Positions 1 to 13,458 of a stretch of 13,466 bases of DNA are shown one piece after another. The translations under genes were made by a program, and so were the position numbers. The notes under the pieces were generated by a model. The model saw only the letters and a program-made list of their open reading frames with translations, was not told where the DNA came from and made no database searches. Positions within the stretch are counted from its first letter, which is position 1. Each line of letters opens with the position of its first letter. Source of the stretch: a virus; the UHGV virus genome UHGV-0850785. One strand, written 5' to 3'.

Positions 1-36
1 AAAATCCCCTTAGTTTTTAAGTGGGTTTTTGTATGA
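1..36 (+). CDS. 3' end (last 11 codons) of an upstream gene cut by the window edge; function unknown, by Mu gene order possibly the DNA-circulation/tail protein
   Basis: Frame 1 is open from position 1 to TGA at 34-36; this stop overlaps ATG 33-35 of the next gene (ATGA), the same coupling pattern seen elsewhere in this operon. Far too short to identify. Confidence 0.25.
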   Translation, partial: KIPLVFKWVFV

Positions 37-929
37 ATAGGAAAAAACTAAGGGTAACGATCACCCTGAACGGAAAAAACCAAAACGGTGAGCAAAAAGT
101 ATTCGAGAGCGAATACAATCAACTGTCATCGTCAGGGCTTCGGGTTTCTTGTACCATTGTTTCGGGCAATGGAAGTTTATCGCCTACTGCTAAAATTCAG
201 GTCTATGGATTGTCGCTAACTAAAATGCTTGCGCTTTTCCGTGTGCAGTGGAATACGCTAGATGCAATGCTAAATGAAGTTGCAATCGAAGCGGGCGAAG
301 AAGGCAAGCCGTTTGAGTTGATTTATAAGGGCAATATCACAACCGCAACAATTAATATGGAGTCCGCACCCGACCCATTTTTAGACATTGATAGCGTTGT
401 CGGATTGGTTGAGCAAATGAAGCCTGCTGAGCCTTTAGCTGTCATTAACGATGTTGACGTTGCGGAAGTGGTTAGAATTATCACTGTGGACAGGATGGGC
501 TATGAGTTCGAGAACAATGGCGTATCTCAAATTATCCCTGATGGTTTCATGTCTGAGGGTGCGAACCTAGAAACAATCCGACAGTTAGCGCATGATTATG
601 ATTTCGATTTATATATTGAGCATAAATTGATTGCCATCGCCCCACGAAACACTAAGCGCGAAATCACCATCCCTCAGATAACACCAAAAGGAGGTCTTGA
701 GGGCTACCCTACCCCCGATATTAAGGGTATATCGTTTAAATGCTTTTATACTCCCCTAGTTCGCTTCGGTGGAAACTTGGAAGTAAAAGATAGTATCATT
801 GAAGTCTGCAATGGTATATGGCGCGTCTACGGCTTGAAAACCATTCTTGAAAGTGGCGTTCCAAATGGGCGCTGGTCTATGGAAGTAAATGCAACTTGGG
901 CGAATAGTACCGATGCCGTTAGAAAATGA
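33..929 (+). CDS. probable baseplate hub protein (Mu gp44 / P2 gpD position)
   Basis: About 298 aa ORF immediately upstream of the gpV-W-J-I block. Function is inferred mainly from synteny, not a recognised motif. In-frame TAA at 18-20 bounds the ORF; the track start is GTG 21, but ATG 33 forms an ATGA overlap with the upstream frame, so I prefer 33. Confidence 0.55.
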   Translation: MNRKKLRVTITLNGKNQNGEQKVFESEYNQLSSSGLRVSCTIVSGNGSLSPTAKIQVYGLSLTKMLALFRVQWNTLDAMLNEVAIEAGEEGKPFELIYKGNITTATINMESAPDPFLDIDSVVGLVEQMKPAEPLAVINDVDVAEVVRIITVDRMGYEFENNGVSQIIPDGFMSEGANLETIRQLAHDYDFDLYIEHKLIAIAPRNTKREITIPQITPKGGLEGYPTPDIKGISFKCFYTPLVRFGGNLEVKDSIIEVCNGIWRVYGLKTILESGVPNGRWSMEVNATWANSTDAVRK

Positions 930-1554
930 TCAACAGACAACGAATTATAGAGCATCCCAGAGCGTTGGCGGTGCTGCTGAATTTGAAGCCATTGTGCGCT
1001 CACTGATGGGTAAGAATCACACCTTAATGTTGGGTGAGGTGATGGCTATCACTCAAGAAGCAAGCAGCACTGATGCGGTGGGCTATCTTTCCGTCCGTCC
1101 AATGGTTTTCATGATTGATGGTTCAAACAATAACTATGAACGTGCCACGATTACTAACGTGCCTTTCTTTCGATTGCAGGCGGGCGGTAATGCAGTCATT
1201 CTAAATCCAAAAGTGGGCGATATTGGTTTGATTGCTTATTGTGAACGTGACATTTCGATGGTGAAGCGCAGCAAGCAGCAAGCAGCGCCAAACTCTCGCA
1301 GGCAGTTTAATATCAATGATGCGGTGTACTTGGGCGGTATGCTGAACGGTGCGCCTACTCAATACATTCAGTTTCTTGACAGTGGCATGAACATTAAGAC
1401 GACTGGCGATGTAAACATTAACGGCTTAACGATTGCACCGAGTGGCATTTTAACGCTTGCAAATGGCGTTGTAGTCGATACGCATATTCACGACCAAGCA
1501 AACGACAGTGACGGAAACACAGAGCAACCAGTGGGGACACCAAGAAATGGCTAA
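889..1554 (+). CDS. baseplate assembly protein V / central spike (Mu gp45, P2 gpV family)
   Basis: 221 aa with an OB-fold-like motif (PKVGDIGLIAY) and a C-terminal His-x-His (THIH, 1483-1491) typical of spike apex metal sites. Sits between hub and W/J genes. Start is ambiguous: ATG 889 has a GGAAG only 3 nt upstream, and ATG 913 is an alternative. The gene overlaps the upstream stop by 41 or 17 nt. Confidence 0.7.
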   Translation: MQLGRIVPMPLENDQQTTNYRASQSVGGAAEFEAIVRSLMGKNHTLMLGEVMAITQEASSTDAVGYLSVRPMVFMIDGSNNNYERATITNVPFFRLQAGGNAVILNPKVGDIGLIAYCERDISMVKRSKQQAAPNSRRQFNINDAVYLGGMLNGAPTQYIQFLDSGMNIKTTGDVNINGLTIAPSGILTLANGVVVDTHIHDQANDSDGNTEQPVGTPRNG

Positions 1555-1903
1555 CACTCTTTTTTTACTTCCCGATACTTGGGACTTAACATTAGATTCA
1601 AGCGGAAATATTGCTATCGCTAGTGATGTTTATCAGCAAGCACAAGACATTGCTTCTGCTTGCCGTGTGTTTCGAGGTGACATGTATTTCGATAGTGCGG
1701 AAGGTATCCCCTACTCCGAGTCGATTCTAGGCAAATCGTCTTATCCACTCGGTCTATATCAGGCAGAATTACGCAAAGCAGCCCTATCGGTTGATGGCGT
1801 GGTTAGTGCTAATATAACATTCAATAAAATTGAAAATCGGGTGCTAAGCGGCATGATTAAATTTACAAATGATCAAGATCAGACAGGAGTTGTGAGCTTA
1901 TGA
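1547..1903 (+). CDS. small baseplate protein (gpW/gp25-like or Mu gp46-like)
   Basis: About 118 aa ORF between V and J. ATG 1547 overlaps the V stop (TAA 1552-1554) and the stop overlaps the J start (ATGA at 1900-1903). The track's GTG 1508 is a possible alternative start. Family assignment is by size and position only. Confidence 0.55.
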   Translation: MANTLFLLPDTWDLTLDSSGNIAIASDVYQQAQDIASACRVFRGDMYFDSAEGIPYSESILGKSSYPLGLYQAELRKAALSVDGVVSANITFNKIENRVLSGMIKFTNDQDQTGVVSL

Positions 1904-3090
1904 TTCCTGATATTGAAATCACAGAAAATGGGATTATTGCACCCACAACAGATGAAGTTCTCGCAGGGGTTTGGGAGGTTTTAAAGACCGCATTCGGTTC
2001 AAGTTTAAATACTGCAATGAATACCCCGCAAGGGCAGTTAGCAACATCAATTACAGCGATTATTCAGAATGAGCGAAACAATTGGATTCAATTAATGAAT
2101 CAGATTGACCCGCAGTATTCTACAGGAATTTGGCAAGATGCCATCGGTGAGCTGTACTTTATCACTCGCCAATCTCAAACGTATTCAATTGCTCAAATTC
2201 GATTGTACGGCTTGAATGGCACGGTAGTTCCGTCAGGCTATAAAATCAGTGACACGGCAGGGAATATTTGGGAAACGACAACACGGTTAATTATTGACAC
2301 GACTGGTTATATTGATGGTTATGTTCAGTGTACCGTTGCAGGGGCAATCAATGCAGCCATTGGCACAATTACAAGCATCATTGTGGCGCTCTCAGGTTTA
2401 GACCGTGCAACAAATACAAGCGCAGCCGTTGCAGGTGTCAATGCTGAAAGCACGGATAACTTCGAGCAGCGCAGACAAGAGTCGGTAGCAGTAAATGCAA
2501 AACTAACCGATGCTGCGGTACGTGGCGCTGTGGCAAATTTATCAAACGTGGTCGATGTTTGGGTGAAATCAAATCCAACCGATGCTACTGTCAATTTTGG
2601 CGTGACTAATTACCCAGTGACACGGAATACTTTGCTTTGTTCTGTCGTTGGCGGTGATGATGAAGATATTGCGTGGCAGATTTTAGTAAAAGCGGGAACT
2701 GGTTGCTCGTTCGCAGGGAATACGGAAGTCACTGTTTATGACAATGACACCTACACAGTAGACCCGCCTGATTATAAAGTGAAGTTTTTGCGTCCGACAT
2801 TAAAAACGGTTAAGTTTAAAATCACGCTTGAAAATAAAAACGAAATGTCACTGCAAGATGAAAAGGCAATGAAAACCGCCATTCTTAGTGCGCTAGAAAC
2901 AGGAAAAACGCGCGCTCGCATCGGTCAAAAGCTTAGGGCTTCGGCTTATGTTTACCCAGTTAGCAGTGCATCGGATTTAAGCTTGATTAGTGTTGAGGTA
3001 AGCTTCGATGGCACAACGTGGGCTAATTATTTAGAGTTGGGCGTTGATGAATACCCAGTAACTACTGAATTCGATATTGAGGTCGCATAA
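1900..3090 (+). CDS. baseplate J-like protein (Mu gp47 / P2 gpJ family)
   Basis: 396 aa, the size and operon position of baseplate wedge J proteins. ATGA overlap with the upstream gene and TAATG overlap with the downstream gene. Confidence 0.75.
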   Translation: MIPDIEITENGIIAPTTDEVLAGVWEVLKTAFGSSLNTAMNTPQGQLATSITAIIQNERNNWIQLMNQIDPQYSTGIWQDAIGELYFITRQSQTYSIAQIRLYGLNGTVVPSGYKISDTAGNIWETTTRLIIDTTGYIDGYVQCTVAGAINAAIGTITSIIVALSGLDRATNTSAAVAGVNAESTDNFEQRRQESVAVNAKLTDAAVRGAVANLSNVVDVWVKSNPTDATVNFGVTNYPVTRNTLLCSVVGGDDEDIAWQILVKAGTGCSFAGNTEVTVYDNDTYTVDPPDYKVKFLRPTLKTVKFKITLENKNEMSLQDEKAMKTAILSALETGKTRARIGQKLRASAYVYPVSSASDLSLISVEVSFDGTTWANYLELGVDEYPVTTEFDIEVA

Positions 3091-3728
3091 TGTTTGAAGT
3101 TAAAGATACGTTGATGTCGCAGTATGCAAATAGCCCTGCAATTGTCGGGATTATTGATGGAATAGCCGATGCACTAGACCCTAATGCCACCGTGGATGAA
3201 TTTTATTCATTGCTATGGAATCTAAGCACCGCAAAGACATGGGGCTTAGATATTTGGGGACGCATTGTTGGCATGAGTCGAAACGTGCAAATGAGCGACC
3301 CCGATGCCGTAACATTCGGTTTTAAAACTAACCCTGTGTCGCAAAACTTCACACCCTTTAATGTCGCACCGTTCAGCGCAAGCGGTGCAAAATTCAACAG
3401 TTATCGACTGCCTGATAACCTCTATAAAGAGCTAATCATTATCAAGGCAGCTTCAAATATTCTCTATGCAACTGCGCCCAATATTAATAAGTATCTTCAA
3501 ATGATTTTCAGTGAAAAGGCTTACTACTACATCACGGGTCACATGACAGCAGCTTATATATTTGAATTTGAATTAACCGCATTTCAGCGTTTAATTGTCT
3601 ATACTTTGAAGTTATTACCTGAGCCGTGCGGTGTGTTAATCTCTTATGAAGAAAGAGCAGTTTCGGAGATATTTGGATTCGATGGCACAGAATATGAAAC
3701 ATTTGATAACGGAGTATTTGTTCGATGA
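3090..3728 (+). CDS. tail protein I-like baseplate protein (Mu gp48 / P2 gpI position)
   Basis: 212 aa ORF directly after J and before the fiber. Coupled by TAATG (3088-3092) and ATGA (3725-3728) overlaps. Confidence 0.6.
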   Translation: MFEVKDTLMSQYANSPAIVGIIDGIADALDPNATVDEFYSLLWNLSTAKTWGLDIWGRIVGMSRNVQMSDPDAVTFGFKTNPVSQNFTPFNVAPFSASGAKFNSYRLPDNLYKELIIIKAASNILYATAPNINKYLQMIFSEKAYYYITGHMTAAYIFEFELTAFQRLIVYTLKLLPEPCGVLISYEERAVSEIFGFDGTEYETFDNGVFVR

Positions 3729-4441
3729 GCAATCCTGATGTTATGTGGGCAAAAGCATTTGCGTGGAATGCTACAAACAGAAATACGATTCAAGATGAGC
3801 GGCAATCGTCACAAGATGCACAAGATGCCACGCTCAATGAAGGCTTTCCGCTTATCACAATGACCGCCAAAAATGCAGGAGGTATCGCTCCGAACGGTCA
3901 AGATATGAACGGTGCGCTTTATGCGATTAGTTCAGACATGGTTCATCGCCAAAAAGGTCTACGAATCCAATTTGATTCTGCCTATGCGACAAAAATCGGA
4001 GGTTATGATCAAGGCTGTATTCTTGCGTCTAACGACTACACACGTGATTACATTAGCCTTATCCCGAACAATTTAACCGATCCAAACGGTAGCGGGACTG
4101 CGGGACGTTGGGCTATATATTCAGGCGCTGGCTCTATTGCTTCTGCAACTGCGAGCATTGCGGGCATTGTTAAGATTGTTGATAGTTTGTCGAGTACCGC
4201 AACGGATGCAGCATTAACTGCTAATCAAGGTAGAATTCTGAGTGGTCTCACACAGCCAGCTACCACTACAAATGTTGGTATTACTCGATTTGCAACTGCG
4301 ACAGAGGTGGCGAATAAGTCAACTACACAAGCAGCAATTACAGCAGCAAACGCCGCAACAGTAGCGCAAAGCACAGACCTTGGTAAACAGTTCCGCCGCA
4401 TTTTTAACCACTTCCTGATTGCTGGATCGGGATACTGCTGA
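3725..4441 (+). CDS. tail fiber protein, N-terminal (baseplate-attachment) region only; 3' end runs into the junction
   Basis: Follows the gpI-like gene, as the fiber does in Mu/P2. Contains the conserved fiber N-terminal motif pattern (GIVKIVDSLSSTATDAALTANQG ... GITRFATATEVANKSTTQAAIT). At 238 aa it is far shorter than typical fibers. The last ~20 codons (after ~4380) read as antisense of the convergent gene, and no fiber chaperone gene follows. Confidence 0.65.
   Translation: MSNPDVMWAKAFAWNATNRNTIQDERQSSQDAQDATLNEGFPLITMTAKNAGGIAPNGQDMNGALYAISSDMVHRQKGLRIQFDSAYATKIGGYDQGCILASNDYTRDYISLIPNNLTDPNGSGTAGRWAIYSGAGSIASATASIAGIVKIVDSLSSTATDAALTANQGRILSGLTQPATTTNVGITRFATATEVANKSTTQAAITAANAATVAQSTDLGKQFRRIFNHFLIAGSGYC
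4319..4441. other. breakpoint zone between the myovirus baseplate module and the podovirus structural module (best estimate ~4380)
   Basis: Convergent ORFs 3725..4441 (+) and 4319..6139 (-) overlap by 123 nt. Each ORF's terminal ~20 codons are the antisense reading of the other's protein-like sequence. Composition and strand polarity switch here. Confidence 0.5.
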
Positions 4442-7178: not shown

Positions 7179-9649
7179 CAGAATCCCCCAACAGTAAGGC
7201 GAGGAATAACGGCAAGAACAGACAGCGGCAACGGGTCAAGCTGACGGATTTTTACACGTCCGTTTTTGCCCCAGTTACTGTCCAGCTTCACTTCTACTTT
7301 TCCGGTAGCATCATCAACAGGATCATCGTAGAACTCGAATTCACGCTGTGGATATTCGTACCATTTACCGCCGGGCGTAGTCGCCCAGATGCCGCGACTG
7401 GCATTCACAACCAGAGTAACGGACGGGATCACCTGTTTTTTGTCCAGCAGCGTTTCCTGTCCGTTAATGTTGATATCCAACGTTTCGAATTCAGCAGTTA
7501 TTGGCAGGCCGATGTGCACAACAGCCCCCGGTGATTCCAGCGTGACGGCACCTCCGGAAACTACTTTCTGTGGTTCCACGTTCGCATCAGAGAGGATGTT
7601 TACGGTCTGACCTTCAAGATGAGACAAGCCTCCAAATGTCCGGAGCGCCATCTGCCAGTTCGTGGTGGCCACATTCCTGAGGGATGGCGGGACGTTCCTG
7701 TTAGCACGAACCACTACAGCGGTATTGCTGGTTACAGAAATAATGTCGCAACGTAATTCTTTTGACACTTCATCGCCAGTATCAGGATCAGTTCCGGTAT
7801 AAGGGAACTGTAGTTGCGCACCGACATCACTACTGGTGAAGTACGCACCACCAGAAACACTGATTGTATATTCCGCACGGTAATCCCATTCACCAGAACC
7901 ACCAGTGATGGTCATCGTTCTGTCAGACGTATTTCTTCCATCATAGCTAAGGCCAGAATCAACAAAGAAAGCATCTTCATCGCTGGTAAATAAACGGCTG
8001 GACAGTCTCTCGATGTATCTCACTGTTTGCCCGTTAACGGTTCGGTTAACGACGAAATACACCGCATCTTCATTGCCTTCGCTGATACTGCATGTGCTTT
8101 CATATTTTCCGGTACTGGATTGTGGTGCCCATGCAAAAACCTGCTGATCACGCAAATAGGTCATCACCAGTAATTTACCGTCATCACGAATGCAGAAGGC
8201 GCTGGAGTAAGGGACAATAGAGAAGCACCAGTCAACAATGCTGTGCTTCTGAAAAAGATGATTGGCAAGGATGGTCAGGTCGTTCCCCTGATAGCCGTCA
8301 ACATCGAATGAATAGGCCAGATCACGGACAACACTGCCTTTCTCCTGGACGAACAGAGCAATATTCGCCACGGCAATTGGTGGGACGTTGCTTGAGCCAT
8401 TTGATCCCTGAGAGCTGAATGCAAATGATGATGGGGTTAACACTTTGTTCTGGTCGCCGGTGATGACGTACTCACCTCCGGAAGTCAGCGCCACCAGCGA
8501 ACCAACATCAATCAGGTGGCGGATCTCATTAACCTGACGCCCGGCATAGGTGTAGATAATTCTGTCGTCATCCTGCGTAGGATTGCTTTTGCCAAAATCC
8601 TTATAATCCCCAGTACGGCTGGCCCAGATAGTCTGAGGGAACGCTGTCGATGCGGCGAAGTAAAGACGTTGTTGATAATAAACAACAGTGCCAGGATAAC
8701 CGTTAACACTATTCCAGGCATATTTAGCCCATTTATAGCTGGCATTATCCTCGCCAACTACCTGCGAAGGGATATAGGAAATCACCTCAGCAGTTGCAGT
8801 AGTTCCATTTGCAGCAGAGATACGGGCAATGCCAAAACCACTGTGCAGATACTCCCACTCAATGCCAGTATCATCATCACCGGATCCGCCCCAGCCATCC
8901 CATGATGTTCCTTCTGTATGCGAAGGGCGCAAAGTGCCTGTTTTGCCTGCTGTAACGGCGCGATAGTAGTTACTGTCTGCACGGCGAATATCGCCAATCG
9001 ATGTACTCTTACTTGTTTCCCATACCGGCACTGAATCCACTGCAGGCTGTTCCAGATAGAACAATTTGCCTACCTGCTCCGCGCCAAAAATAGAGGCGCT
9101 TGCCGTTAACGTAATTGTCCCGGTGCTGGCGCTGGCATAAACCGTCACTGACTCGTCAATATTGATATCTTCAAATGGACCGTTCTTCGTTACCACATCA
9201 ACCAGTTGCCAGTTGTCATGAGCATATCGGCGCAACTCTTTCGGCGGGTATGCAGGGTGAACCAGCGTAAGCACGTCGGCGCTTTGCGTGAATTTAATTC
9301 GGAACAGATCGGCTTCAGTATATGGCGTGGCAATTTCATAAATAACATTGCTGCTGTTCAGCACCAACGCACCATCTTTGATAACGCGCATGTACTGGTG
9401 TCCGAACTCCAGAGCATAAGTCTGAACCGTCGAGAACTGGAACGGGATCAGGCGGCATTTCCGATTTGGGTATTTGGCGGCACCGACAAAACGCGTACCA
9501 GGTCGATTCTCAACTCCGCCATACTGCCGCACGATAAAGTTATCGCACTTGCGCAATGCCACCTGGTACTTCGCCATGTCGATACGACCGTACAACGACG
9601 GTCCAATTTCACCACCGGCAAAGCTGGGCTGGATCCAACTGATAGCCAT
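7178..9649 (-). CDS. tail tubular protein B / nozzle (T7 gp12 family)
   Basis: 823 aa. N-terminus MAISWIQPSFAGGEIGPSLYGRIDMAKYQ ... ENRPGTRF matches the pattern I associate with gp12-like nozzle proteins. Size and position directly after a gp11-like gene fit; ATGA overlap at 9647-9651. Confidence 0.75.
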   Translation of the reverse strand: MAISWIQPSFAGGEIGPSLYGRIDMAKYQVALRKCDNFIVRQYGGVENRPGTRFVGAAKYPNRKCRLIPFQFSTVQTYALEFGHQYMRVIKDGALVLNSSNVIYEIATPYTEADLFRIKFTQSADVLTLVHPAYPPKELRRYAHDNWQLVDVVTKNGPFEDINIDESVTVYASASTGTITLTASASIFGAEQVGKLFYLEQPAVDSVPVWETSKSTSIGDIRRADSNYYRAVTAGKTGTLRPSHTEGTSWDGWGGSGDDDTGIEWEYLHSGFGIARISAANGTTATAEVISYIPSQVVGEDNASYKWAKYAWNSVNGYPGTVVYYQQRLYFAASTAFPQTIWASRTGDYKDFGKSNPTQDDDRIIYTYAGRQVNEIRHLIDVGSLVALTSGGEYVITGDQNKVLTPSSFAFSSQGSNGSSNVPPIAVANIALFVQEKGSVVRDLAYSFDVDGYQGNDLTILANHLFQKHSIVDWCFSIVPYSSAFCIRDDGKLLVMTYLRDQQVFAWAPQSSTGKYESTCSISEGNEDAVYFVVNRTVNGQTVRYIERLSSRLFTSDEDAFFVDSGLSYDGRNTSDRTMTITGGSGEWDYRAEYTISVSGGAYFTSSDVGAQLQFPYTGTDPDTGDEVSKELRCDIISVTSNTAVVVRANRNVPPSLRNVATTNWQMALRTFGGLSHLEGQTVNILSDANVEPQKVVSGGAVTLESPGAVVHIGLPITAEFETLDININGQETLLDKKQVIPSVTLVVNASRGIWATTPGGKWYEYPQREFEFYDDPVDDATGKVEVKLDSNWGKNGRVKIRQLDPLPLSVLAVIPRLTVGGF

Positions 9650-10254
9650 CAGGACAACCTCGCAATGGTAAACTCGTCAACCGGTGGCAGTGGTTCCTGT
9701 GATTCATTCTGGCTATGCGAGCCAGCACTAAGAATCACGCGATTGTACATATTGAGGGCAAACGTACCGAGGTCTGCATTCCCAGTCAGCGCCATGTTAA
9801 TAGCTGCCGCAAGACGCCAGGCCAACGCCTCCATAAAAATGGCATCAAACATGTTCACATCTGAAACGCGAGAGACATACTTGAGCCATGCCTGCGGCTG
9901 GTCTGTGTAGATCAACTTTCCTGTTCCGTTGGTGTCTGCACCAACTTCGTACTGAACGCGCATTGCTGCTGTTGGATTGCGTACACCAGGAAGCATAATT
10001 TCAGTAATGCGCAGACAATCTGACGGGTACTGATACGCATATTCCCAGTCAGGCGGTGGATTGCTCGTATCTGCAAGCGCCACGCGTTTGGTAGCAAAGT
10101 TCCAGTCAAAATCAGAAAGCACAGCATCACGGCAGGCCTCAAAGTGCAGCGAACATTCCCCCGCTTCCTTGCTGGCTTCCGTCAGGCTGTTAATGCTGCG
10201 GCTATTGCCAATATTGGACAGCGCACGATTGCAGATCTCTACTACAGAGGCCAT
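9649..10254 (-). CDS. tail tubular protein A / adaptor (T7 gp11 family)
   Basis: 201 aa, similar in size to T7 gp11 (~196 aa), immediately upstream of the gp12-like gene. TAATG overlap with the upstream gene at 10252-10256. Confidence 0.7.
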   Translation of the reverse strand: MASVVEICNRALSNIGNSRSINSLTEASKEAGECSLHFEACRDAVLSDFDWNFATKRVALADTSNPPPDWEYAYQYPSDCLRITEIMLPGVRNPTAAMRVQYEVGADTNGTGKLIYTDQPQAWLKYVSRVSDVNMFDAIFMEALAWRLAAAINMALTGNADLGTFALNMYNRVILSAGSHSQNESQEPLPPVDEFTIARLS

Positions 10255-10577
10255 TACTCACCCCCATTGCCGTACAGGGTTTCAGCCGCTGATTTTTCTA
10301 CATCCCCGGAAACAGGAGCGATCGCCATATCAGTGATCTGCAGATCGGCGCTGCGATTAACCCCATCGTCAGTTTCTCTGGCAGACAGGCCTCGAATAAC
10401 AGCCTTTGCAGTTATCATCACTTCTGTTCCGACGCCCTGAGGTTGCGCCTTCAGCTTATTCAATGTGTCGTTATTAAGAGTGATGCACAGCCCCCACGGG
10501 TATTCATCGCGAGTTCTGGTTTCTCCGCTCTCATCCTGGTAGCTGTCAGTGCCGGTTTTGAGGTTTACGAGTTCCAT
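10254..10577 (-). CDS. hypothetical small structural protein (~107 aa)
   Basis: ORF directly upstream of and overlapping the gp11-like gene. The track start GTG 10583 lies inside the AGGAG RBS (10583-10587); ATG at 10575-10577 has 5-nt spacing, so I prefer it. Confidence 0.5.
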   Translation of the reverse strand: MELVNLKTGTDSYQDESGETRTRDEYPWGLCITLNNDTLNKLKAQPQGVGTEVMITAKAVIRGLSARETDDGVNRSADLQITDMAIAPVSGDVEKSAAETLYGNGGE

Positions 10578-10594
10578 ATACACTCCTGCAATAA

Positions 10595-10610
10595 AGGGGC
10601 CGAAGCCCCT
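10595..10610 (-). terminator. intrinsic-terminator-like hairpin (6-bp G/C-rich stem, UUCG tetraloop) followed by UUUAUU
   Basis: Minus-strand sequence AGGGGC-TTCG-GCCCCT then TTATTG, in the 44-nt gap between the 111-aa and 107-aa genes. The downstream RBS follows immediately, suggesting an attenuator rather than a full stop. Confidence 0.5.
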
Positions 10611-10627
10611 TGTCTGATCCGCGAGGC

Positions 10628-10963
10628 TTACACGCCCAGTTCTTTACGCTTATCTGCGATCTTCTCGCGGAGCGTTTCGGCTTTGGCGTTATGGTGTGGC
10701 TTCTCGTTAAAGAGCAATTCGTACTCTTCACGGAGCTTATCCAGTTCACCATCATCTGACACATCGTTGATGATTTTGGTGCTGGTTGCTGCCATTGACA
10801 CCTTTCCTGCAATTTTTGCTTTTGCCTGTCTGGCTGCATCGTTAACAGGTTCCAGTGCGCTACCAGGCTCACCTTCGTATTCGATTTCTGCCCCCTCCGG
10901 CCACAGAGTGTTATGGATATGAGAGAGGCGCAGAACGCGGTATCTTGGTTTCTCACCTGACAT
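10628..10963 (-). CDS. hypothetical small head-associated protein (~111 aa), highly charged C-terminal helix
   Basis: ORF between the 145-aa gene and the hairpin. The track start GTG 10972 lies within the RBS AAGGTGA; ATG 10961-10963 has 5-nt spacing. C-terminus is Lys/Glu-rich (DKLREEYELLFNEK ... REKIADKRKELGV). Confidence 0.5.
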   Translation of the reverse strand: MSGEKPRYRVLRLSHIHNTLWPEGAEIEYEGEPGSALEPVNDAARQAKAKIAGKVSMAATSTKIINDVSDDGELDKLREEYELLFNEKPHHNAKAETLREKIADKRKELGV

Positions 10964-10973
10964 CGATATCACC

Positions 10974-11411
10974 TTAACCAGTTACTTTTGAGCGGATCGG
11001 ATACGGCGTATTGGCATCAACATCAAGACTGATACCAGCAGTGAATTCGCCAGCCGTTAGTGGGCCAGTTGCGACGGAGTAGTTAACACGCAGATATCGC
11101 TGAACACCGGCAGGCACCTTTGCAGAAACAACTCGTTTACCTGCTGTCAGGGCGGTCTTTGCCAGTGCGCCACTATCATAAATAGTGGTCCATGAGCTGT
11201 TATTCTCACTCGTCTGCAACTGGATGTTTACAGTTGCATCACCGCTTGCCGCGGCGGCTGTGTTAACCAGCGCCCAAAACTCAAGCGGGTAACCCACGCC
11301 GATATCACGACGTTTTCCGTCAATTGGACCGAGATCGATTACGTCAGTAGAAGCCGCGGTATTCGTAACCGCCTGAGCTTCGGAGAACATCAACAGTTTG
11401 TCGGTGATCAT
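10974..11411 (-). CDS. hypothetical protein, possible capsid decoration/accessory protein (145 aa)
   Basis: First gene after the major capsid gene, with a GGAG RBS 7 nt upstream. Thr/Ala/Ser/Val-rich composition suggests a beta-rich fold. Function is from position only. Confidence 0.5.
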   Translation of the reverse strand: MITDKLLMFSEAQAVTNTAASTDVIDLGPIDGKRRDIGVGYPLEFWALVNTAAAASGDATVNIQLQTSENNSSWTTIYDSGALAKTALTAGKRVVSAKVPAGVQRYLRVNYSVATGPLTAGEFTAGISLDVDANTPYPIRSKVTG

Positions 11412-11462
11412 CTTCTTTCTCCATTAGTGGGTCTGTTACGACCAACAGGTTAATAACAGGCG

Positions 11463-12455
11463 TTACACCACGCGGGCTTCTGTTTCCAGAAGCGCATCAG
11501 TTTCACGGATTGGTACACCACGGAATGAAGTCCACCACTCGCCTTCAGTCTCTTTTACGCTGATAGCCAGAGATGTTTTCTCCAGAGATTGCAGATCAAG
11601 AGCCTGGCCTACAGTGCGGTTCATGTAGAACACCGGGCGACCCATGCCACGGTTTGGAATGCGATGCAGTGCTTTAACCATCAACTTCGCAATATTTGCG
11701 GCAGAGGAAGGTTCTGAAAGATTGCTGACATCGATGTTTGCAATGCGAACAACATAACGCCAGTCACGCAGAGCAAGTCCGTTGTCCCATTTGTAATGGG
11801 TACGGTAGCCTTCGTACTTGCCGCCATTAACATCTTCCAGTGTCACCTGGCCTTTATCTTCCATCTGGATTCCAGCCTTCTGCCCTTTCGGGAAGATGCC
11901 ATGCACGGTGTTTTCGCCCCACACCACTAACCAGATTGAGGTGTTATCTGTACCCGTGCCACCAGCATCAATGATGTTCTGAGCATTACCCGCAGACAGG
12001 CTGGAATAGCGGGAGGACAGTCCCATAAACTGCTGAGGGTTAACGCTGGAATCACCATAAAACAACGTCTGCGCCATCTGCTGATTCATCGCTTCAATAA
12101 ATGCGCGGTCTTCAGACAGGCGGAATTCGGCGGTATTACCGTTCAGATCAGCCAGTGACTTATCGACTTCAGCATAGGTTTCCAGCATTCCAACGGAATC
12201 GGTGACCTGCACTGTGGTTGATTTGCTTGGCTGTACGCCATAGTTCAGCAAACGCCAGGTGGCTGAAGGTAAACCAGAACGAATGGTGGTTCGGTGTCCG
12301 GTAGGAAGGTTCCCTTCGACAAAAGGCATATCCTGAAGGATCGGGTTAGTTTGACCGAGAAGCTCGATAATCTTATCGACTTTCCCGTTTGGATCGACGC
12401 GCTTACCCCAGTCAGCCAGCGTTAGCGCAGTTAAGCCTTTAACAGCCATTGTCAT
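11463..12455 (-). CDS. major capsid protein
   Basis: 330 aa, directly downstream of the scaffold gene. The N-terminal region (LADWGKRVDPNG ... ILQDMPFVEGNLPTGH ... AFIEAMNQQMAQTLFYG) resembles podovirus major capsid proteins I recall. The second ATG (12447-12449) has better RBS spacing (GAGAGGA 8 nt upstream), so the true start may be 12449. Confidence 0.8.
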   Translation of the reverse strand: MTMAVKGLTALTLADWGKRVDPNGKVDKIIELLGQTNPILQDMPFVEGNLPTGHRTTIRSGLPSATWRLLNYGVQPSKSTTVQVTDSVGMLETYAEVDKSLADLNGNTAEFRLSEDRAFIEAMNQQMAQTLFYGDSSVNPQQFMGLSSRYSSLSAGNAQNIIDAGGTGTDNTSIWLVVWGENTVHGIFPKGQKAGIQMEDKGQVTLEDVNGGKYEGYRTHYKWDNGLALRDWRYVVRIANIDVSNLSEPSSAANIAKLMVKALHRIPNRGMGRPVFYMNRTVGQALDLQSLEKTSLAISVKETEGEWWTSFRGVPIRETDALLETEARVV

Positions 12456-12463
12456 TTCCTCTC

Positions 12464-13159
12464 TTATTTGCCATAGAGCACTTCGGCCGCACTACGCTGG
12501 CCTTCATTACCACCGGTGACCATGCCATCTTCAGACATCGCCTTTCCGATTTTCACGAACGTTTTGACCAGATCAGGGTGATTACCCAGCCCGGTGGTGT
12601 TCAGATATTCTTTGAGCTCAGGTGTCCCGAACTGGTCAAGCGCACGCTGTGCGGCGCTAAGGTTAGAAATCAACTTGTCGCCACCGATTTCTTTGTCAGC
12701 TTTTACATCCGCAGCCCACTGCTCGGTTGTTTTCTGCCAGGCTTCTGCCTGGCGCTGCTGAACACCTGCCAGAATCTTCGGATAAGCATCAACCAGCTTT
12801 TGCGCTTGCTCGTTGGTCAGGTTTAGTTCTCGAGCCACCGGCTCGAACTCCTTCAACGCTTCTGTATCCAGCTCTACGCCTTCGGCAGCCTGAAACTCGT
12901 ACTTCTCAGGCGCACCCTCTGGTTTATCGCCGTCCTTTTTTTCATCCTGCTTATCGTTTTCAGACTTTTTGTCATCAGCAGGTTTATCGCCATCAGCAAC
13001 AGGTTGTGGCTTATCACCTTCCTGTTGTGATGGATCACCAACTGGAGCAGGGTTATCACCTGCAGGCGCTGACGGTTCTGACGCAGCCGGAGCTGCTCCA
13101 CCATCGACTGGTTGCTCATTGCAAAGACGGCGATACAGCAAACGCTCAAATAAATTCAT
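12464..13159 (-). CDS. scaffolding protein
   Basis: ~231 aa immediately upstream of the capsid gene. Acidic Pro/Asp/Lys-rich low-complexity N-terminal half with GDKP repeats, then a helical region. The track start GTG 13165 sits in the AGGAG RBS; ATG 13157-13159 has 5-nt spacing. Confidence 0.7.
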   Translation of the reverse strand: MNLFERLLYRRLCNEQPVDGGAAPAASEPSAPAGDNPAPVGDPSQQEGDKPQPVADGDKPADDKKSENDKQDEKKDGDKPEGAPEKYEFQAAEGVELDTEALKEFEPVARELNLTNEQAQKLVDAYPKILAGVQQRQAEAWQKTTEQWAADVKADKEIGGDKLISNLSAAQRALDQFGTPELKEYLNTTGLGNHPDLVKTFVKIGKAMSEDGMVTGGNEGQRSAAEVLYGK

Positions 13160-13161
13160 GA

Positions 13162-13458
13162 TCACTCCTGTTCACTGGCCTCTTTGGCCATCTTCAAATA
13201 CTGTTCAGGGCAATGCGCCATAACGCGCTGAAACAGTTCCAGCGCCAGATTGCGTTGCCCCTCATTAAATGCCATTGCCATAGCGTCCATCGGTGAGATA
13301 GCGGAAAACACACGGCCTTTCTCCAGCACCGACCAGACAACGCGACGCCCCTGTTCACTGCTCATGACAAAGCGAATGTCATCAATTTCACGCTGCGCCA
13401 TGTCACGTTGCTTACGGGCGTTTTCTTCTTTCAGTTGATCGTCTTCGTAATCTGTCAT
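13162..13458 (-). CDS. hypothetical small acidic protein (98 aa) between the presumed portal gene and the scaffold gene
   Basis: ORF whose stop (TGA 13162-13164) lies in the scaffold RBS/spacer. Its ATG (13456-13458) overlaps a TGA (13455-13457) that would end a minus-strand gene entering from the right edge (ATGA). No recognisable motif. Confidence 0.5.
   Translation of the reverse strand: MTDYEDDQLKEENARKQRDMAQREIDDIRFVMSSEQGRRVVWSVLEKGRVFSAISPMDAMAMAFNEGQRNLALELFQRVMAHCPEQYLKMAKEASEQE

What the first reader, a model, noticed from the sequence alone, without database searches (positions are those of the whole stretch)
10254..11411. Three uncharacterised small genes between major capsid and tail tubular A
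T7 itself has nothing between gene 10 and gene 11. Here three ORFs (145, ~111, ~107 aa) are inserted, each with its own RBS, and the first two lie upstream of the hairpin. The 145-aa protein is Thr/Ala/Ser-rich. The ~111-aa protein has a strongly charged helical C-terminus. None carries a motif I can name. They are candidates for decoration, cement or head-to-tail adaptor proteins, but that is positional inference only.
Basis: inference. Interest (0 to 1): 0.45.

Follow-up and report, generated by a model that had tools for sequence, protein, structure and literature searches.

The report
Capsid cement gene plus two helpers
The three small genes are the normal, conserved genes that follow the coat-protein gene in epsilon15/phiV10-type phages: the first encodes the well-known cement protein that clamps the shell together, the third belongs to a family that databases call "capsid staple" but which comparative evidence shows is optional and almost certainly not the staple, and the middle one is conserved and still uncharacterised.

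Summary
In detail: three tightly packed minus-strand ORFs (145, 111 and 107 aa), each with an RBS, with a GC hairpin between the second and third. All are under purifying selection (dN/dS 0.11-0.16). The framing is wrong. The window is a phiV10/epsilon15-type phage (Uetakevirus, 98-99% DNA identity), not T7 with an insertion, and the arrangement is ancestral to the epsilon15/BPP-1 group.

- **145 aa:** a Bbp16-family capsid cement protein (Pfam 4.7e-47; solved BPP-1 and Carin-1 capsid chains, 1e-25 and 1e-22).
- **107 aa:** an epsilon15 gp10 homologue (Pfam PF21628; NCBI "capsid staple protein"). That name rests on PDB 3J40, which a 2022 AlphaFold re-analysis attributes to the 130-aa Bbp16 homologue. 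Supporting this:
  - The gene lies after the terminator-like hairpin.
  - It sits beside the portal in other lineages.
  - It is missing from BUCT711, whose coat is 93% identical to epsilon15's.
  - It is missing from 48 of 79 related viral contigs.
- **111 aa:** epsilon15 gp9 family (phrog_590), function unknown. It follows the cement gene in every lineage where it was detected. It has an SH3-like N-domain, a variable linker and a helical C-domain.

The genes themselves are already known. The point of interest is the mis-named "staple" family.

The parts
11463..12455 (-). Major capsid protein (330 aa), epsilon15 gp7 / BPP-1 Bbp17 family. Context only: first gene of the shell cassette.
   Evidence: Pfam PF20911 GP7, 9e-149. 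The left boundary of the mosaic block lies at its start codon.
10974..11411 (-). Bbp16-family capsid cement (decoration) protein, 145 aa, 15.2 kDa.
   Evidence: Pfam PF21190 Bbp16, 4.7e-47, full length. PDB 3j4u_H 'cementing protein' 1.5e-25 and 8cjz_B 'Capsid Decoration Protein' 1.6e-22; 8cjz_B is identical to the Carin-1 gp42 translation. Conserved N-terminal and RYLRxNY motifs across 8 lineages. dN/dS 0.11. NCBI name 'Bbp16 family capsid cement protein'.
10628..10963 (-). epsilon15 gp9-family protein, 111 aa (phrog_590), function unknown. Built of an SH3-like N-domain (about residues 6-40), a helix plus variable Ala/Lys-rich linker, and a conserved two-helix C-domain (73-108).
10590..10611 (-). 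GC-rich hairpin (7-bp stem, UUCG loop) followed by UAUU. Probable partial intrinsic terminator separating the shell genes from gp10 and the tail genes.
   Evidence: Sequence and fold. Identical core in phiV10, Tyrion and PAT1. A different hairpin with a U-tract sits at the same site in epsilon15, where it is annotated as a rho-independent terminator, and in BUCT711. The simple consensus scan did not call it.
10254..10577 (-). epsilon15 gp10-family protein, 107 aa, pI 4.4 (Pfam 'Gp10-like', NCBI 'capsid staple protein'). An optional accessory gene whose place in the virion is unknown.
   Evidence: Pfam PF21628 1.2e-51. PDB 3j40_N 2.2e-21. AF2 model, pLDDT 76, with a long beta-hairpin (53-88) and no jellyroll. 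No fold match in PDB or BFVD outside its own family. Gene position varies between lineages. Absent from BUCT711 and Kp4865-1 and from 48/79 related loci.
9649..10254 (-). Tail tubular protein A / adaptor (201 aa), epsilon15 gp11 homologue. Context only: the right boundary of the mosaic block lies at its start codon.
   Evidence: phrog_394 4e-86. 85% identical to epsilon15 gp11, against 35-43% for the four genes upstream. Its ATG overlaps the gp10-like stop codon.

Best explanation
The region is the distal part of the capsid-shell cassette of a phiV10/epsilon15-type podophage (Uetakevirus). It is not an insertion into a T7-like genome.

**Gene 1 (145 aa)** is the Bbp16-family cement protein. 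By homology to solved capsids, it is a jellyroll protein whose dimers sit upright on the outer surface across the two-fold and quasi-two-fold interfaces between capsomers. It is present about 1:1 with the coat protein and clamps the shell.

**Gene 2 (111 aa, epsilon15 gp9 family)** is translated right after the cement gene, upstream of a terminator-like hairpin, so it is made together with the coat and cement proteins.
- It has a small SH3-like N-domain, a length-variable flexible linker and a helical C-domain.
- My best inference is that it is a capsid-specific assembly or DNA-packaging helper, comparable in logic to lambda gpFI, or a flexibly tethered low-occupancy surface protein. It does not look like an ordered shell subunit.

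**The hairpin** attenuates transcription, so everything downstream is made in smaller amounts, as Tphi does after T7 gene 10.

**Gene 3 (107 aa, epsilon15 gp10 family)** is translationally coupled to the adaptor gene. It is an optional accessory protein, probably a low-copy virion or head-assembly component. It is not the 'capsid staple' that its database name claims; that density belongs to the gene-1 family.

**Shown here:** family memberships, gene order, conservation, the mosaic boundaries and the presence/absence pattern.

**Inferred:** the actual roles of genes 2 and 3, and terminator activity of the hairpin.
For: **Identity of the phage.** 98-99% DNA identity to phiV10, TL-2011b and PAS61. 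phiV10 p11-p13 are annotated as similar to Bbp16, epsilon15 gp9 and epsilon15 gp10.

**Gene 1.**
- Pfam Bbp16 4.7e-47.
- 3J4U_H 1.5e-25 and 8CJZ_B 1.6e-22 over nearly the full length.
- In BPP-1, Bbp16 is the second most abundant virion protein, is modelled at 3.5 A, and its deletion abolishes infectious phage (PMC3863775).
- The same role was modelled at 3.16 A in PhiXacm4-11.

**gp10 is not the staple.**
- An AlphaFold re-analysis of the epsilon15 map found that only the 130-aa protein fits the 'gp10' density (PMC9207676). That protein is epsilon15 gp8, the Bbp16 homologue.
- BPP-1 and the CP2/PhiXacm4-11 group encode gp10 homologues (Bbp20; ORF12/gp18). Their high-resolution shells nevertheless contain only coat plus cement protein.
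- My AF2 model of the 107-aa protein has no jellyroll.
- BUCT711 and Kp4865-1 lack any gp10 homologue genome-wide (best E 0.39 with filters off). BUCT711's coat and cement proteins are still 93% and 90% identical to epsilon15's.
- 48 of 79 IMG/VR loci with that cement type lack gp10, while 79/79 keep gp9.

**Expression logic.** A hairpin is conserved at the same site despite about 40% protein identity of the flanking genes.

**Cassette.** Identity between phiV10 and epsilon15 is 73-88% for portal, scaffold, adaptor and nozzle (gp5 65%). It is 35-43% for coat, cement, gp9 and gp10. The breakpoints fall at the coat and adaptor start codons.

**gp9 architecture and linkage.**
Against: - The roles proposed for genes 2 and 3 are inferences. 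No fold or profile match supports any specific biochemical function.
- Proteomics of epsilon15 virions reportedly detected gp10 (as summarised in PMC9207676), so it may still be capsid-associated. It also co-segregates with the coat/cement cassette in the phiV10-epsilon15 comparison.
- The hairpin has a weak U-tract. It was not called by the consensus terminator scan, and its folding z-score is only -1.0 to -1.2.
- The jellyroll fold of the 145-aa protein was not predicted here, only inferred from homology.
- The window's prophage appears truncated downstream, so these genes may not currently build virions in this particular sequence.
Confidence: 0.72

Rival explanations
1. The database reading is right. 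The 107-aa gp10-family protein is the capsid 'staple' that dimerises across two-fold axes (PDB 3J40), and the 145-aa protein is a second decoration protein or something else.
For: 3j40_N matches the 107-aa protein at 2.2e-21. Pfam names the family 'Major coat protein-like' and NCBI names it 'capsid staple protein'. Reviews and a 2025 paper repeat the assignment. gp10 peptides were reportedly found in epsilon15 virions. gp10 co-segregates with coat and cement genes in the phiV10-epsilon15 mosaic.
Against: The 3J40 assignment was made at 4.5 A, when gp10 was the only known candidate of about 12 kDa. An AlphaFold re-fit favours the 130-aa Bbp16 homologue. The BPP-1 (3.5 A) and PhiXacm4-11 (3.16 A) shells hold only coat plus Bbp16-type cement, although both lineages encode gp10 homologues. 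The AF2 model lacks a jellyroll. The gene lies after the terminator-like hairpin with low-copy tail genes. Phages with 93%-identical coat protein have no gp10 at all.
Confidence: 0.05
2. The 107-aa gp10-family protein is a portal-vertex component, such as a ring, plug or head-completion factor acting with the portal and adaptor.
For: Its gene is always next to a portal-vertex gene. It is directly after the portal in BPP-1, BcepC6B, Jess A and DC33, in the TerL-portal interval in CP2, and directly before and overlapping the adaptor gene in Uetakeviruses. It lies downstream of the hairpin. The model shows a long protruding beta-hairpin, typical of ring-forming subunits.
Against: It was not among the proteins modelled in the 3.45 A PhiXacm4-11 portal-adaptor-nozzle map, although that phage encodes a homologue. 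It is absent from viable relatives. It diverges with the coat genes (42%), not with the portal or adaptor (82-85%). There is no fold similarity to stoppers or adaptors, and no profile match to lambda FII or T7 gp7.3.
Confidence: 0.15
3. The 111-aa gp9-family protein is a genuine second decoration protein or head fibre. Its N-domain docks on coat or cement protein while the linker and helical domain project outwards.
For: It is co-transcribed with coat and cement genes upstream of the hairpin and co-inherited with them. Distant homologues carry long coiled-coil or low-complexity extensions after the same N-domain. Carin-1 encodes head-spike genes at the equivalent position.
Against: The epsilon15 capsid density is reported as fully accounted for by the coat protein plus one small protein. 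In DC33 the homologue is the N-domain alone. There is no homology to any known decoration protein or to the Carin-1 spike base, which was not detected by the gp9 profile.
Confidence: 0.2
4. One reading: a T7-like phage that acquired a novel three-gene insertion of unknown structural proteins between gene 10 and gene 11.
For: The tail genes are T7-like in type (gp11, gp12 and gp14 homologues). T7 itself has only Tphi between genes 10 and 11.
Against: The coat protein is of the epsilon15 gp7 / BPP topology family, not the T7 gp10 family. The genome is a Uetakevirus. The arrangement is shared by distant lineages and is therefore old. Two of the three genes belong to named families.
Confidence: 0.02

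Closest known systems
BPP-1 Bbp16 cement protein (PDB 3J4U chain H), Carin-1 gp42 (PDB 8CJZ chain B), PhiXacm4-11 gp26, epsilon15 gp8
   Same: The 145-aa protein matches full length (37-47% identity in the 8-sequence alignment). It shares the conserved N-terminal MIxDKLLxFSxxQAVT...VIDLG and RYLRxNY motifs. Its gene lies directly after a GP7/Bbp17-type coat gene.
   Different: It is 5-15 residues longer than the epsilon15, Carin-1 and BPP-1 versions, with a short insertion near residues 30-35 and a C-terminal extension like that of PhiXacm4-11 gp26. Nothing suggests a different function.
epsilon15 gp10 ('capsid staple', PDB 3J40 chains H-N; Pfam PF21628)
   Same: The 107-aa protein is a clear sequence homologue (42-43% identity, 2e-21), the same length, and in the same position before the adaptor gene.
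   Different: The function attached to the family name is probably wrong. It was re-assigned by AlphaFold fitting and is contradicted here by gene presence/absence, gene position and predicted fold.
epsilon15 gp9 / phrog_590
   Same: The 111-aa protein is 39-40% identical to epsilon15 gp9, has the same N- and C-terminal modules, and has the same position.
   Different: The linker is longer than in epsilon15 (111 vs 94 aa). Some homologues carry 2-4 tandem copies of a linker unit of roughly 26 aa. No function is known for any member.
Lambda gpFI DNA-packaging chaperone (PDB 2LSM)
T7 gene 10 - Tphi - gene 11 arrangement
   Same: A hairpin directly follows the high-copy shell genes and precedes the adaptor and nozzle genes.
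   Different: Here two extra genes (cement, gp9) lie before the hairpin and one (gp10) after it. The hairpin would be read by host RNA polymerase, whereas Tphi is read by T7 RNA polymerase. This phage shows no T7-type RNA polymerase context in the window.

Membership tests
Bbp16-family capsid cement protein (Pfam PF21190) | Full-length profile match above the curated threshold | tested here: met
   159.5 bits against a cutoff of 27.1; residues 9-127 match profile positions 1-115 of 115.
Bbp16-family capsid cement protein (Pfam PF21190) | Sequence homology to cement proteins modelled in solved capsids | tested here: met
   3j4u_H 1.5e-25 (residues 1-141) and 8cjz_B 1.6e-22 (residues 1-130). Family motifs are conserved in 8 lineages.
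Bbp16-family capsid cement protein (Pfam PF21190) | Gene immediately downstream of a GP7/Bbp17-type (BPP-topology) HK97-fold coat gene | tested here: met
   Coat gene 11463-12455 (PF20911, 9e-149) is followed by the 145-aa gene after a 51-nt spacer. The same order was found in every lineage where the cement gene was detected.
Bbp16-family capsid cement protein (Pfam PF21190) | Eight-stranded jellyroll fold | not tested
The fold is inferred from homology to 3J4U/8CJZ and from the PhiXacm4-11 description.
Bbp16-family capsid cement protein (Pfam PF21190) | Dimers on two-fold and quasi-two-fold axes, about 1:1 with the coat protein | not testable with these tools
   Needs cryo-EM or quantitative proteomics of this phage.
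epsilon15 gp10 family (Pfam PF21628 'Gp10-like'; NCBI 'capsid staple protein') | Sequence membership | tested here: met
   173.5 bits against a cutoff of 27. 3j40_N 2.2e-21.
epsilon15 gp10 family (Pfam PF21628 'Gp10-like'; NCBI 'capsid staple protein') | Functional claim in the name: an obligatory shell subunit forming the inter-capsomer staple | tested here: not met
   There is no jellyroll in the AF2 model. The gene is absent from the complete genomes of BUCT711 and Kp4865-1, which have epsilon15-type coat and cement proteins, and from 48/79 related loci. Homologue-encoding phages have shells of coat plus Bbp16-type cement only. The literature has re-assigned the density.
epsilon15 gp9 family (phrog_590) | Sequence membership and position after the cement gene | tested here: met
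   phrog_590 5.1e-61, full length. BLASTP to epsilon15 gp9 8e-19. Position conserved.
Lambda gpFI packaging chaperone | Sequence or profile homology to gpFI | tested here: not met
   hhalign probability 0.19%, E 0.31.
Lambda gpFI packaging chaperone | Fold similarity to the gpFI C-domain (2LSM) | tested here: inconclusive
Lambda gpFI packaging chaperone | Stimulates prohead-terminase docking and is absent from mature virions | not testable with these tools
   Needs genetics or biochemistry.
Head-to-tail adaptor / head-completion proteins (T7 gp11, lambda FII, T7 gp7.3) | Homology of any of the three ORFs to these families | tested here: not met
Intrinsic (rho-independent) terminator | GC-rich stem-loop followed by a U-tract, conserved in position | tested here: inconclusive
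   7-bp GC-rich stem with a UUCG loop. The tail UAUUG is U-poor unless the last two stem pairs open (UUUAUU). The consensus scan did not call it. The position is conserved, with a stronger U-tract, in epsilon15 (annotated as a terminator) and BUCT711.

The most novel reading that the evidence does not exclude
Two linked readings are not excluded by the evidence.

1. The gp10 family is annotated as 'capsid staple protein' or 'major coat protein-like' across many enterobacterial prophage records and in Pfam. It may in fact be a dispensable accessory protein with an unrecognised fold and an unknown role. Candidates are a low-copy packaged protein or a head-assembly modulator that travels with, but is not needed by, the coat/cement cassette.
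2. The universally retained gp9 family may be a previously unrecognised capsid-specific assembly or packaging chaperone of epsilon15/BPP-1-type podophages. It would work like lambda gpFI: the SH3-like domain binds the shell, and the linker plus helical domain recruit terminase or another partner.
Probability: 0.2. Interest if true: 0.5.

Novelty: already known. Interest (0 to 1): 0.3.

Why it matters
For the genome scan, this turns an apparent 'novel insertion' into ordinary, conserved phage morphogenesis genes.

The useful by-product concerns annotation. Public databases name two different proteins of the same prophage as the occupant of one capsid site: 'Bbp16 family capsid cement protein' and 'capsid staple protein'. 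The comparative data assembled here independently support the 2022 structural re-assignment:
- natural gp10-less phages whose coat protein is 93% identical to epsilon15's;
- the variable gene position;
- the placement after the terminator-like hairpin.

If that is accepted, the Pfam PF21628 description and the NCBI product name should change, and PDB 3J40 chains H-N should be read as carrying the wrong sequence.

This matters for anyone using epsilon15/phiV10-type capsids for display or engineering, where the cement protein is the surface-exposed handle. It also matters for phage structural annotation pipelines.

Two small conserved families are left with defined, cheap knockout experiments: gp9, which is always present, and gp10, which is optional.

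Tried and rejected
**Fold searches**

**Profile comparisons**
- All negative: gp10 family against the Carin-1 gp40 head-spike base, lambda FII and T7 gp7.3, and gp9 family against lambda FI.
- BLASTP of gp9 against BPP-1 Bbp15 gave no alignment.
- The gp9 profile did not detect the small genes at the equivalent position in BPP-1, BcepC6B, Carin-1 or CP2.
- NCBIfam has no model for any of the three proteins.
- Sequence search of the PDB with gp9 gave only chance hits.

**Searches that gave no useful diversity or data**
- The search for related loci with the gp10 alignment returned 80 loci whose matches were 99-100% identical to the query, so it added no diversity.
- Proteins that appear to fuse gp10 with ClpP (P0021, P0117) are reciprocal chimeras at a shared QITDMAI heptapeptide on short metagenome contigs. 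I judged them assembly artefacts, not domain fusions.
- The consensus terminator scan did not flag the hairpin.

**Literature**
- Not held in the library: Kropinski 2007, Jiang 2006, Baker 2013 and d'Acapito 2023. The epsilon15 virion proteomics is therefore cited only second-hand.
- The searches for '8CJZ' and for Bbp20/Bbp19/Bbp15 found nothing relevant.

**Hypothesis downgraded**
- I first favoured a portal-vertex role for gp10, on gene adjacency. I downgraded it after three results: the PhiXacm4-11 tail map, the mosaic analysis and the gp10-less genomes.
Full report
**1. What is in the sequence**

All genes between 4319 and 13458 run on the minus strand. In transcription order they are:
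- a 98-aa Bbp19-like gene (13458-13162);
- a 233-aa scaffold-type gene (13165-12464);
- the 330-aa major capsid protein (12455-11463; Pfam GP7, 9e-149);
- the three ORFs of the finding;
- a 201-aa tail-tubular-A/adaptor homologue (10254-9649);
- an 823-aa nozzle homologue, two internal virion proteins, and an SLT-domain protein.

The three ORFs, from reading the minus strand:
- **ORF1:** 11411-10974, 145 aa, ATG, with GGAGA 6 nt upstream.
- **ORF2:** 10963-10628, 111 aa, ATG. Its AAGGTGA Shine-Dalgarno overlaps the ORF1 stop codon. An in-frame GTG at 10972 would add three residues, but phiV10 and Tyrion annotate 111 aa.
- **ORF3:** 10577-10254, 107 aa, ATG, with AGGAG 5 nt upstream. Its TAA overlaps the adaptor ATG (TAATG).

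Between ORF2 and ORF3 lies AAGGGGC-UUCG-GCCCCUU followed by UAUU (10611-10590).

The ORFs are real genes:
- dN/dS against Enterobacter phage Tyrion is 0.11, 0.16 and 0.11. For comparison, the coat protein gives 0.04 and the adaptor 0.03.
- Each exact protein sequence occurs on about 150 to at least 1000 public contigs.

**2. What phage this is**

The 1.5 kb around the finding is 98-99% identical to E. coli phages PAS61, phiv142-3, TL-2011b and phiV10, genus Uetakevirus, the epsilon15 group. The coat protein belongs to the epsilon15 gp7 / BPP-1 Bbp17 family, not the T7 gp10 family.

T7 does have only terminator Tphi between genes 10 and 11. T7 is nonetheless the wrong reference. Epsilon15 shows the same order: gp7 (coat), gp8 (130 aa), gp9 (94 aa), an annotated rho-independent terminator, gp10 (111 aa), gp11 (adaptor) and gp12.

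**3. ORF1 is the cement protein**

Sequence evidence:
- It matches Pfam Bbp16 full length (4.7e-47).
- It matches two chains of solved capsids: BPP-1 'cementing protein' 3J4U_H (1.5e-25) and 'Capsid Decoration Protein' 8CJZ_B (1.6e-22). The 8CJZ_B sequence is identical to the translated gp42 'cement protein' of Cobetia phage Carin-1.

What is known about the family:
- In BPP-1, Bbp16 is the second most abundant virion protein. It was modelled at 3.5 A, and its deletion abolishes infectious particles (PMC3863775).
- In PhiXacm4-11, the 148-aa homologue is an eight-stranded jellyroll. [quoted passage not shown]

An eight-lineage alignment shows conserved N-terminal and RYLRxNY motifs. NCBI already names this exact protein 'Bbp16 family capsid cement protein'.

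**4. ORF3 carries a name that is probably wrong**

It belongs to Pfam PF21628 'Gp10-like, major coat protein-like' (1.2e-51) and matches PDB 3J40 chain N, epsilon15 gp10 (2.2e-21). NCBI calls the family 'capsid staple protein'.

That name comes from the 4.5 A epsilon15 map. A 2022 re-analysis states that gp10 was chosen because it was the only known candidate of about 12 kDa. It also reports that its AlphaFold model does not fit the density 'outside of two long strands', and that only a 130-aa epsilon15 protein fits (PMC9207676). The 130-aa protein is gp8, the Bbp16 homologue.

My own evidence points the same way.
- **(b) Solved shells of phages that encode homologues.** BPP-1 encodes a gp10 homologue, Bbp20 (PF21628, 4e-20), next to its portal gene. 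Xanthomonas phage CP2 encodes one (ORF12) in the interval between the terminase large subunit and portal genes, and PhiXacm4-11 gp18 is its counterpart. The 3.5 A and 3.16 A shells of BPP-1 and PhiXacm4-11 contain only coat plus Bbp16-type cement. gp18 is also not among the proteins modelled in the 3.45 A tail map.
- **(c) The gene moves between lineages.** It lies directly after the portal in BPP-1, BcepC6B, Caulobacter Jess A and Limnohabitans DC33. It lies upstream of the portal in CP2, and before the adaptor in Uetakeviruses.
- **(d) Natural absence.** Klebsiella phage BUCT711 (an isolated phage) and Kp4865-1 go straight from gp9 through a hairpin to the adaptor gene.
  - They have no gp10 homologue anywhere in their genomes (hmmsearch with filters off, best E 0.39).
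  - BUCT711's coat and cement proteins are still 93% and 90% identical to epsilon15's.
  - Among 79 IMG/VR loci with that cement type and an adaptor gene in range, 48 lack gp10 within the stretch searched (about 6 kb on each side of the cement gene, forward-strand ORFs only) and 31 have it. All 79 keep gp9.

A protein that can be missing from phages with an almost identical shell cannot be the obligatory inter-capsomer staple.

**5. The hairpin and expression logic**

The hairpin core is identical in phiV10, Tyrion and PAT1. Epsilon15 and BUCT711 have a different GC hairpin with a clearer U-tract at the same place, even though the flanking proteins are only about 40% identical.

In the window the U-tract is weak, the consensus scan missed it, and the folding z-scores are modest. 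Terminator activity is therefore inferred, not shown.

If it attenuates transcription, coat, cement and gp9 are made in bulk, while gp10 is made with the low-copy tail proteins. This is the same logic as T7 gene 10, Tphi and gene 11. It fits a roughly 1:1 cement protein encoded by ORF1, not ORF3.

**6. A mosaic cassette**

| Protein | phiV10 vs epsilon15 identity |
|---|---|
| portal | 82% |
| gp5 | 65% |
| scaffold | 73% |
| coat | 43% |
| cement | 35% |
| gp9 | 40% |
| gp10 | 42% |
| adaptor | 85% |
| nozzle | 88% |

Sliding nucleotide identity between the window and epsilon15 falls from 70-85% to about 45-55% at the coat start (about 12455). It returns to about 80% at the adaptor start (about 10254). 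The finding therefore lies inside a four-gene exchange unit.

In BUCT711 versus epsilon15 the conserved unit is coat, cement and partly gp9 (93%, 90% and 59%). There is no gp10, and the flanks are 49-57% identical.

I read this as follows. gp9 is tied to the shell genes. gp10 travels with them when present but is not required by them.

**7. ORF2 (gp9 family)**

There is no Pfam, NCBIfam or PDB match. It matches phrog_590, function unknown (5e-61), and is 39% identical to epsilon15 gp9.

Alignment and AF2 (pLDDT 65) show three parts:
- a conserved beta-rich N-domain (about residues 6-40);
- a helix followed by a low-confidence, Ala/Lys-rich linker of variable length, with tandem duplications in some homologues;
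- a conserved two-helix C-domain.

An exhaustive profile search found 294 relatives. Most share only the N-domain and carry unrelated tails (low-complexity, coiled-coil). A few carry the C-domain behind other N-termini.

The gene sits directly after the cement gene in the window, PAT1, epsilon15, BUCT711, DC33 (N-domain only, 65 aa) and Jess A.

On the anatomy alone I favour a capsid-specific assembly or packaging helper. The relevant features are bulk co-expression with the shell, co-inheritance with the coat gene, a tolerant flexible linker, and the report that the epsilon15 capsid density is fully accounted for by the coat protein plus one small protein. The logic is that of lambda gpFI, which bridges the prohead and terminase-DNA (PMC13595911). 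I put this at about 25-30%. A flexibly tethered surface protein is the main rival, at about 20%.

**8. Verdict**

- The genes are already known: identical proteins are in public phage and prophage records.
- One has a well-established function.
- One has a name that published and present evidence contradict.
- One remains uncharacterised.

Interest is modest. The useful output is a comparative-genomic argument that the 'capsid staple protein' annotation should move from the gp10 family to the Bbp16 family, plus clear knockout and proteomics tests for gp9 and gp10.

Noticed in passing
window 1-4441 (+ strand) and junction near 4384: The left third of the window encodes myovirus-type baseplate proteins on the opposite strand (Pfam E217_GP41 hub, Baseplate_J, DUF2612, tail-fibre repeats). 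Similarity to Uetakevirus prophages stops abruptly at position 4384. This leaves the SLT-domain internal virion protein at 606 aa, against about 837 aa in phiV10 p18. Positions 1-4383 have no near match in 5,426 complete E. coli genomes or in the phage collection. This could be a prophage remnant abutting another element, or an assembly chimera.
   Followed up: partly
window 10254-12455; compared with L001 and L002: Coat, cement, gp9 and gp10 form one mosaic exchange block between phiV10-type and epsilon15-type phages (35-43% identity, against 65-88% for the flanking genes). The breakpoints fall at the coat and adaptor start codons.
   Followed up: yes
L093/L094 (Klebsiella phage BUCT711), L095 (Kp4865-1), L096-L175: There are natural gp10-less Uetakeviruses whose coat and cement proteins are 93% and 90% identical to epsilon15's. 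48 of 79 related IMG/VR loci lack gp10 and all keep gp9.
   Followed up: yes
proteins P0021 and P0117 (ENA metagenome contigs of 2.3 kb and 1.1 kb): These are reciprocal gp10::ClpP chimeras joined at a shared QITDMAI heptapeptide. They are most likely k-mer assembly artefacts, not real fusions, and they explain the stray PF00574 labels in the hit list.
   Followed up: partly
proteins P0150, P0153, P0163, P0168 (gp9-family homologues): The linker region contains 2-4 tandem copies of a unit of roughly 26 aa (for example LEPLNDAARSAKAKAKHKVESTSVVAA). The linker length is evidently free to vary.
   Followed up: no
window 13162-13458 (-): This 98-aa gene belongs to Pfam PF25181 'Bbp19-like phage protein', function unknown. 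It is conserved next to the scaffold gene in epsilon15, BPP-1, DC33, Jess A and Carin-1.
   Followed up: no
window 12464-13165 (-): This gene sits in the scaffold position but is labelled 'protease' or 'endoprotease' in PHROGs and RefSeq (phrog_458). Pfam finds no protease domain, and the BPP-1 capsid proteins are reported uncleaved. The label looks inherited rather than tested.
   Followed up: no
public annotation of the window's proteins; PMC12391199; PMC7602432: NCBI names the 145-aa protein 'Bbp16 family capsid cement protein' and the 107-aa protein of the same prophage 'capsid staple protein', so two names refer to one capsid site. A 2025 epsilon15 paper and a 2020 review still describe gp10 as the staple. 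The 2025 paper places it on the inner surface.
   Followed up: partly
L090 (Limnohabitans phage DC33, PQ492659.1): The GenBank taxonomy line places this 39-kb phage in Inoviridae. It nevertheless encodes an epsilon15-type coat, cement, adaptor and nozzle set, so the record appears misclassified.
   Followed up: no
L004 (Cobetia phage Carin-1) 4531-6493: Between the cement and adaptor genes, Carin-1 carries a 'head spike base protein' (gp40) and two further genes in place of gp9 and gp10. The slot after the cement gene seems to be a hot spot for lineage-specific capsid accessories.
   Followed up: partly
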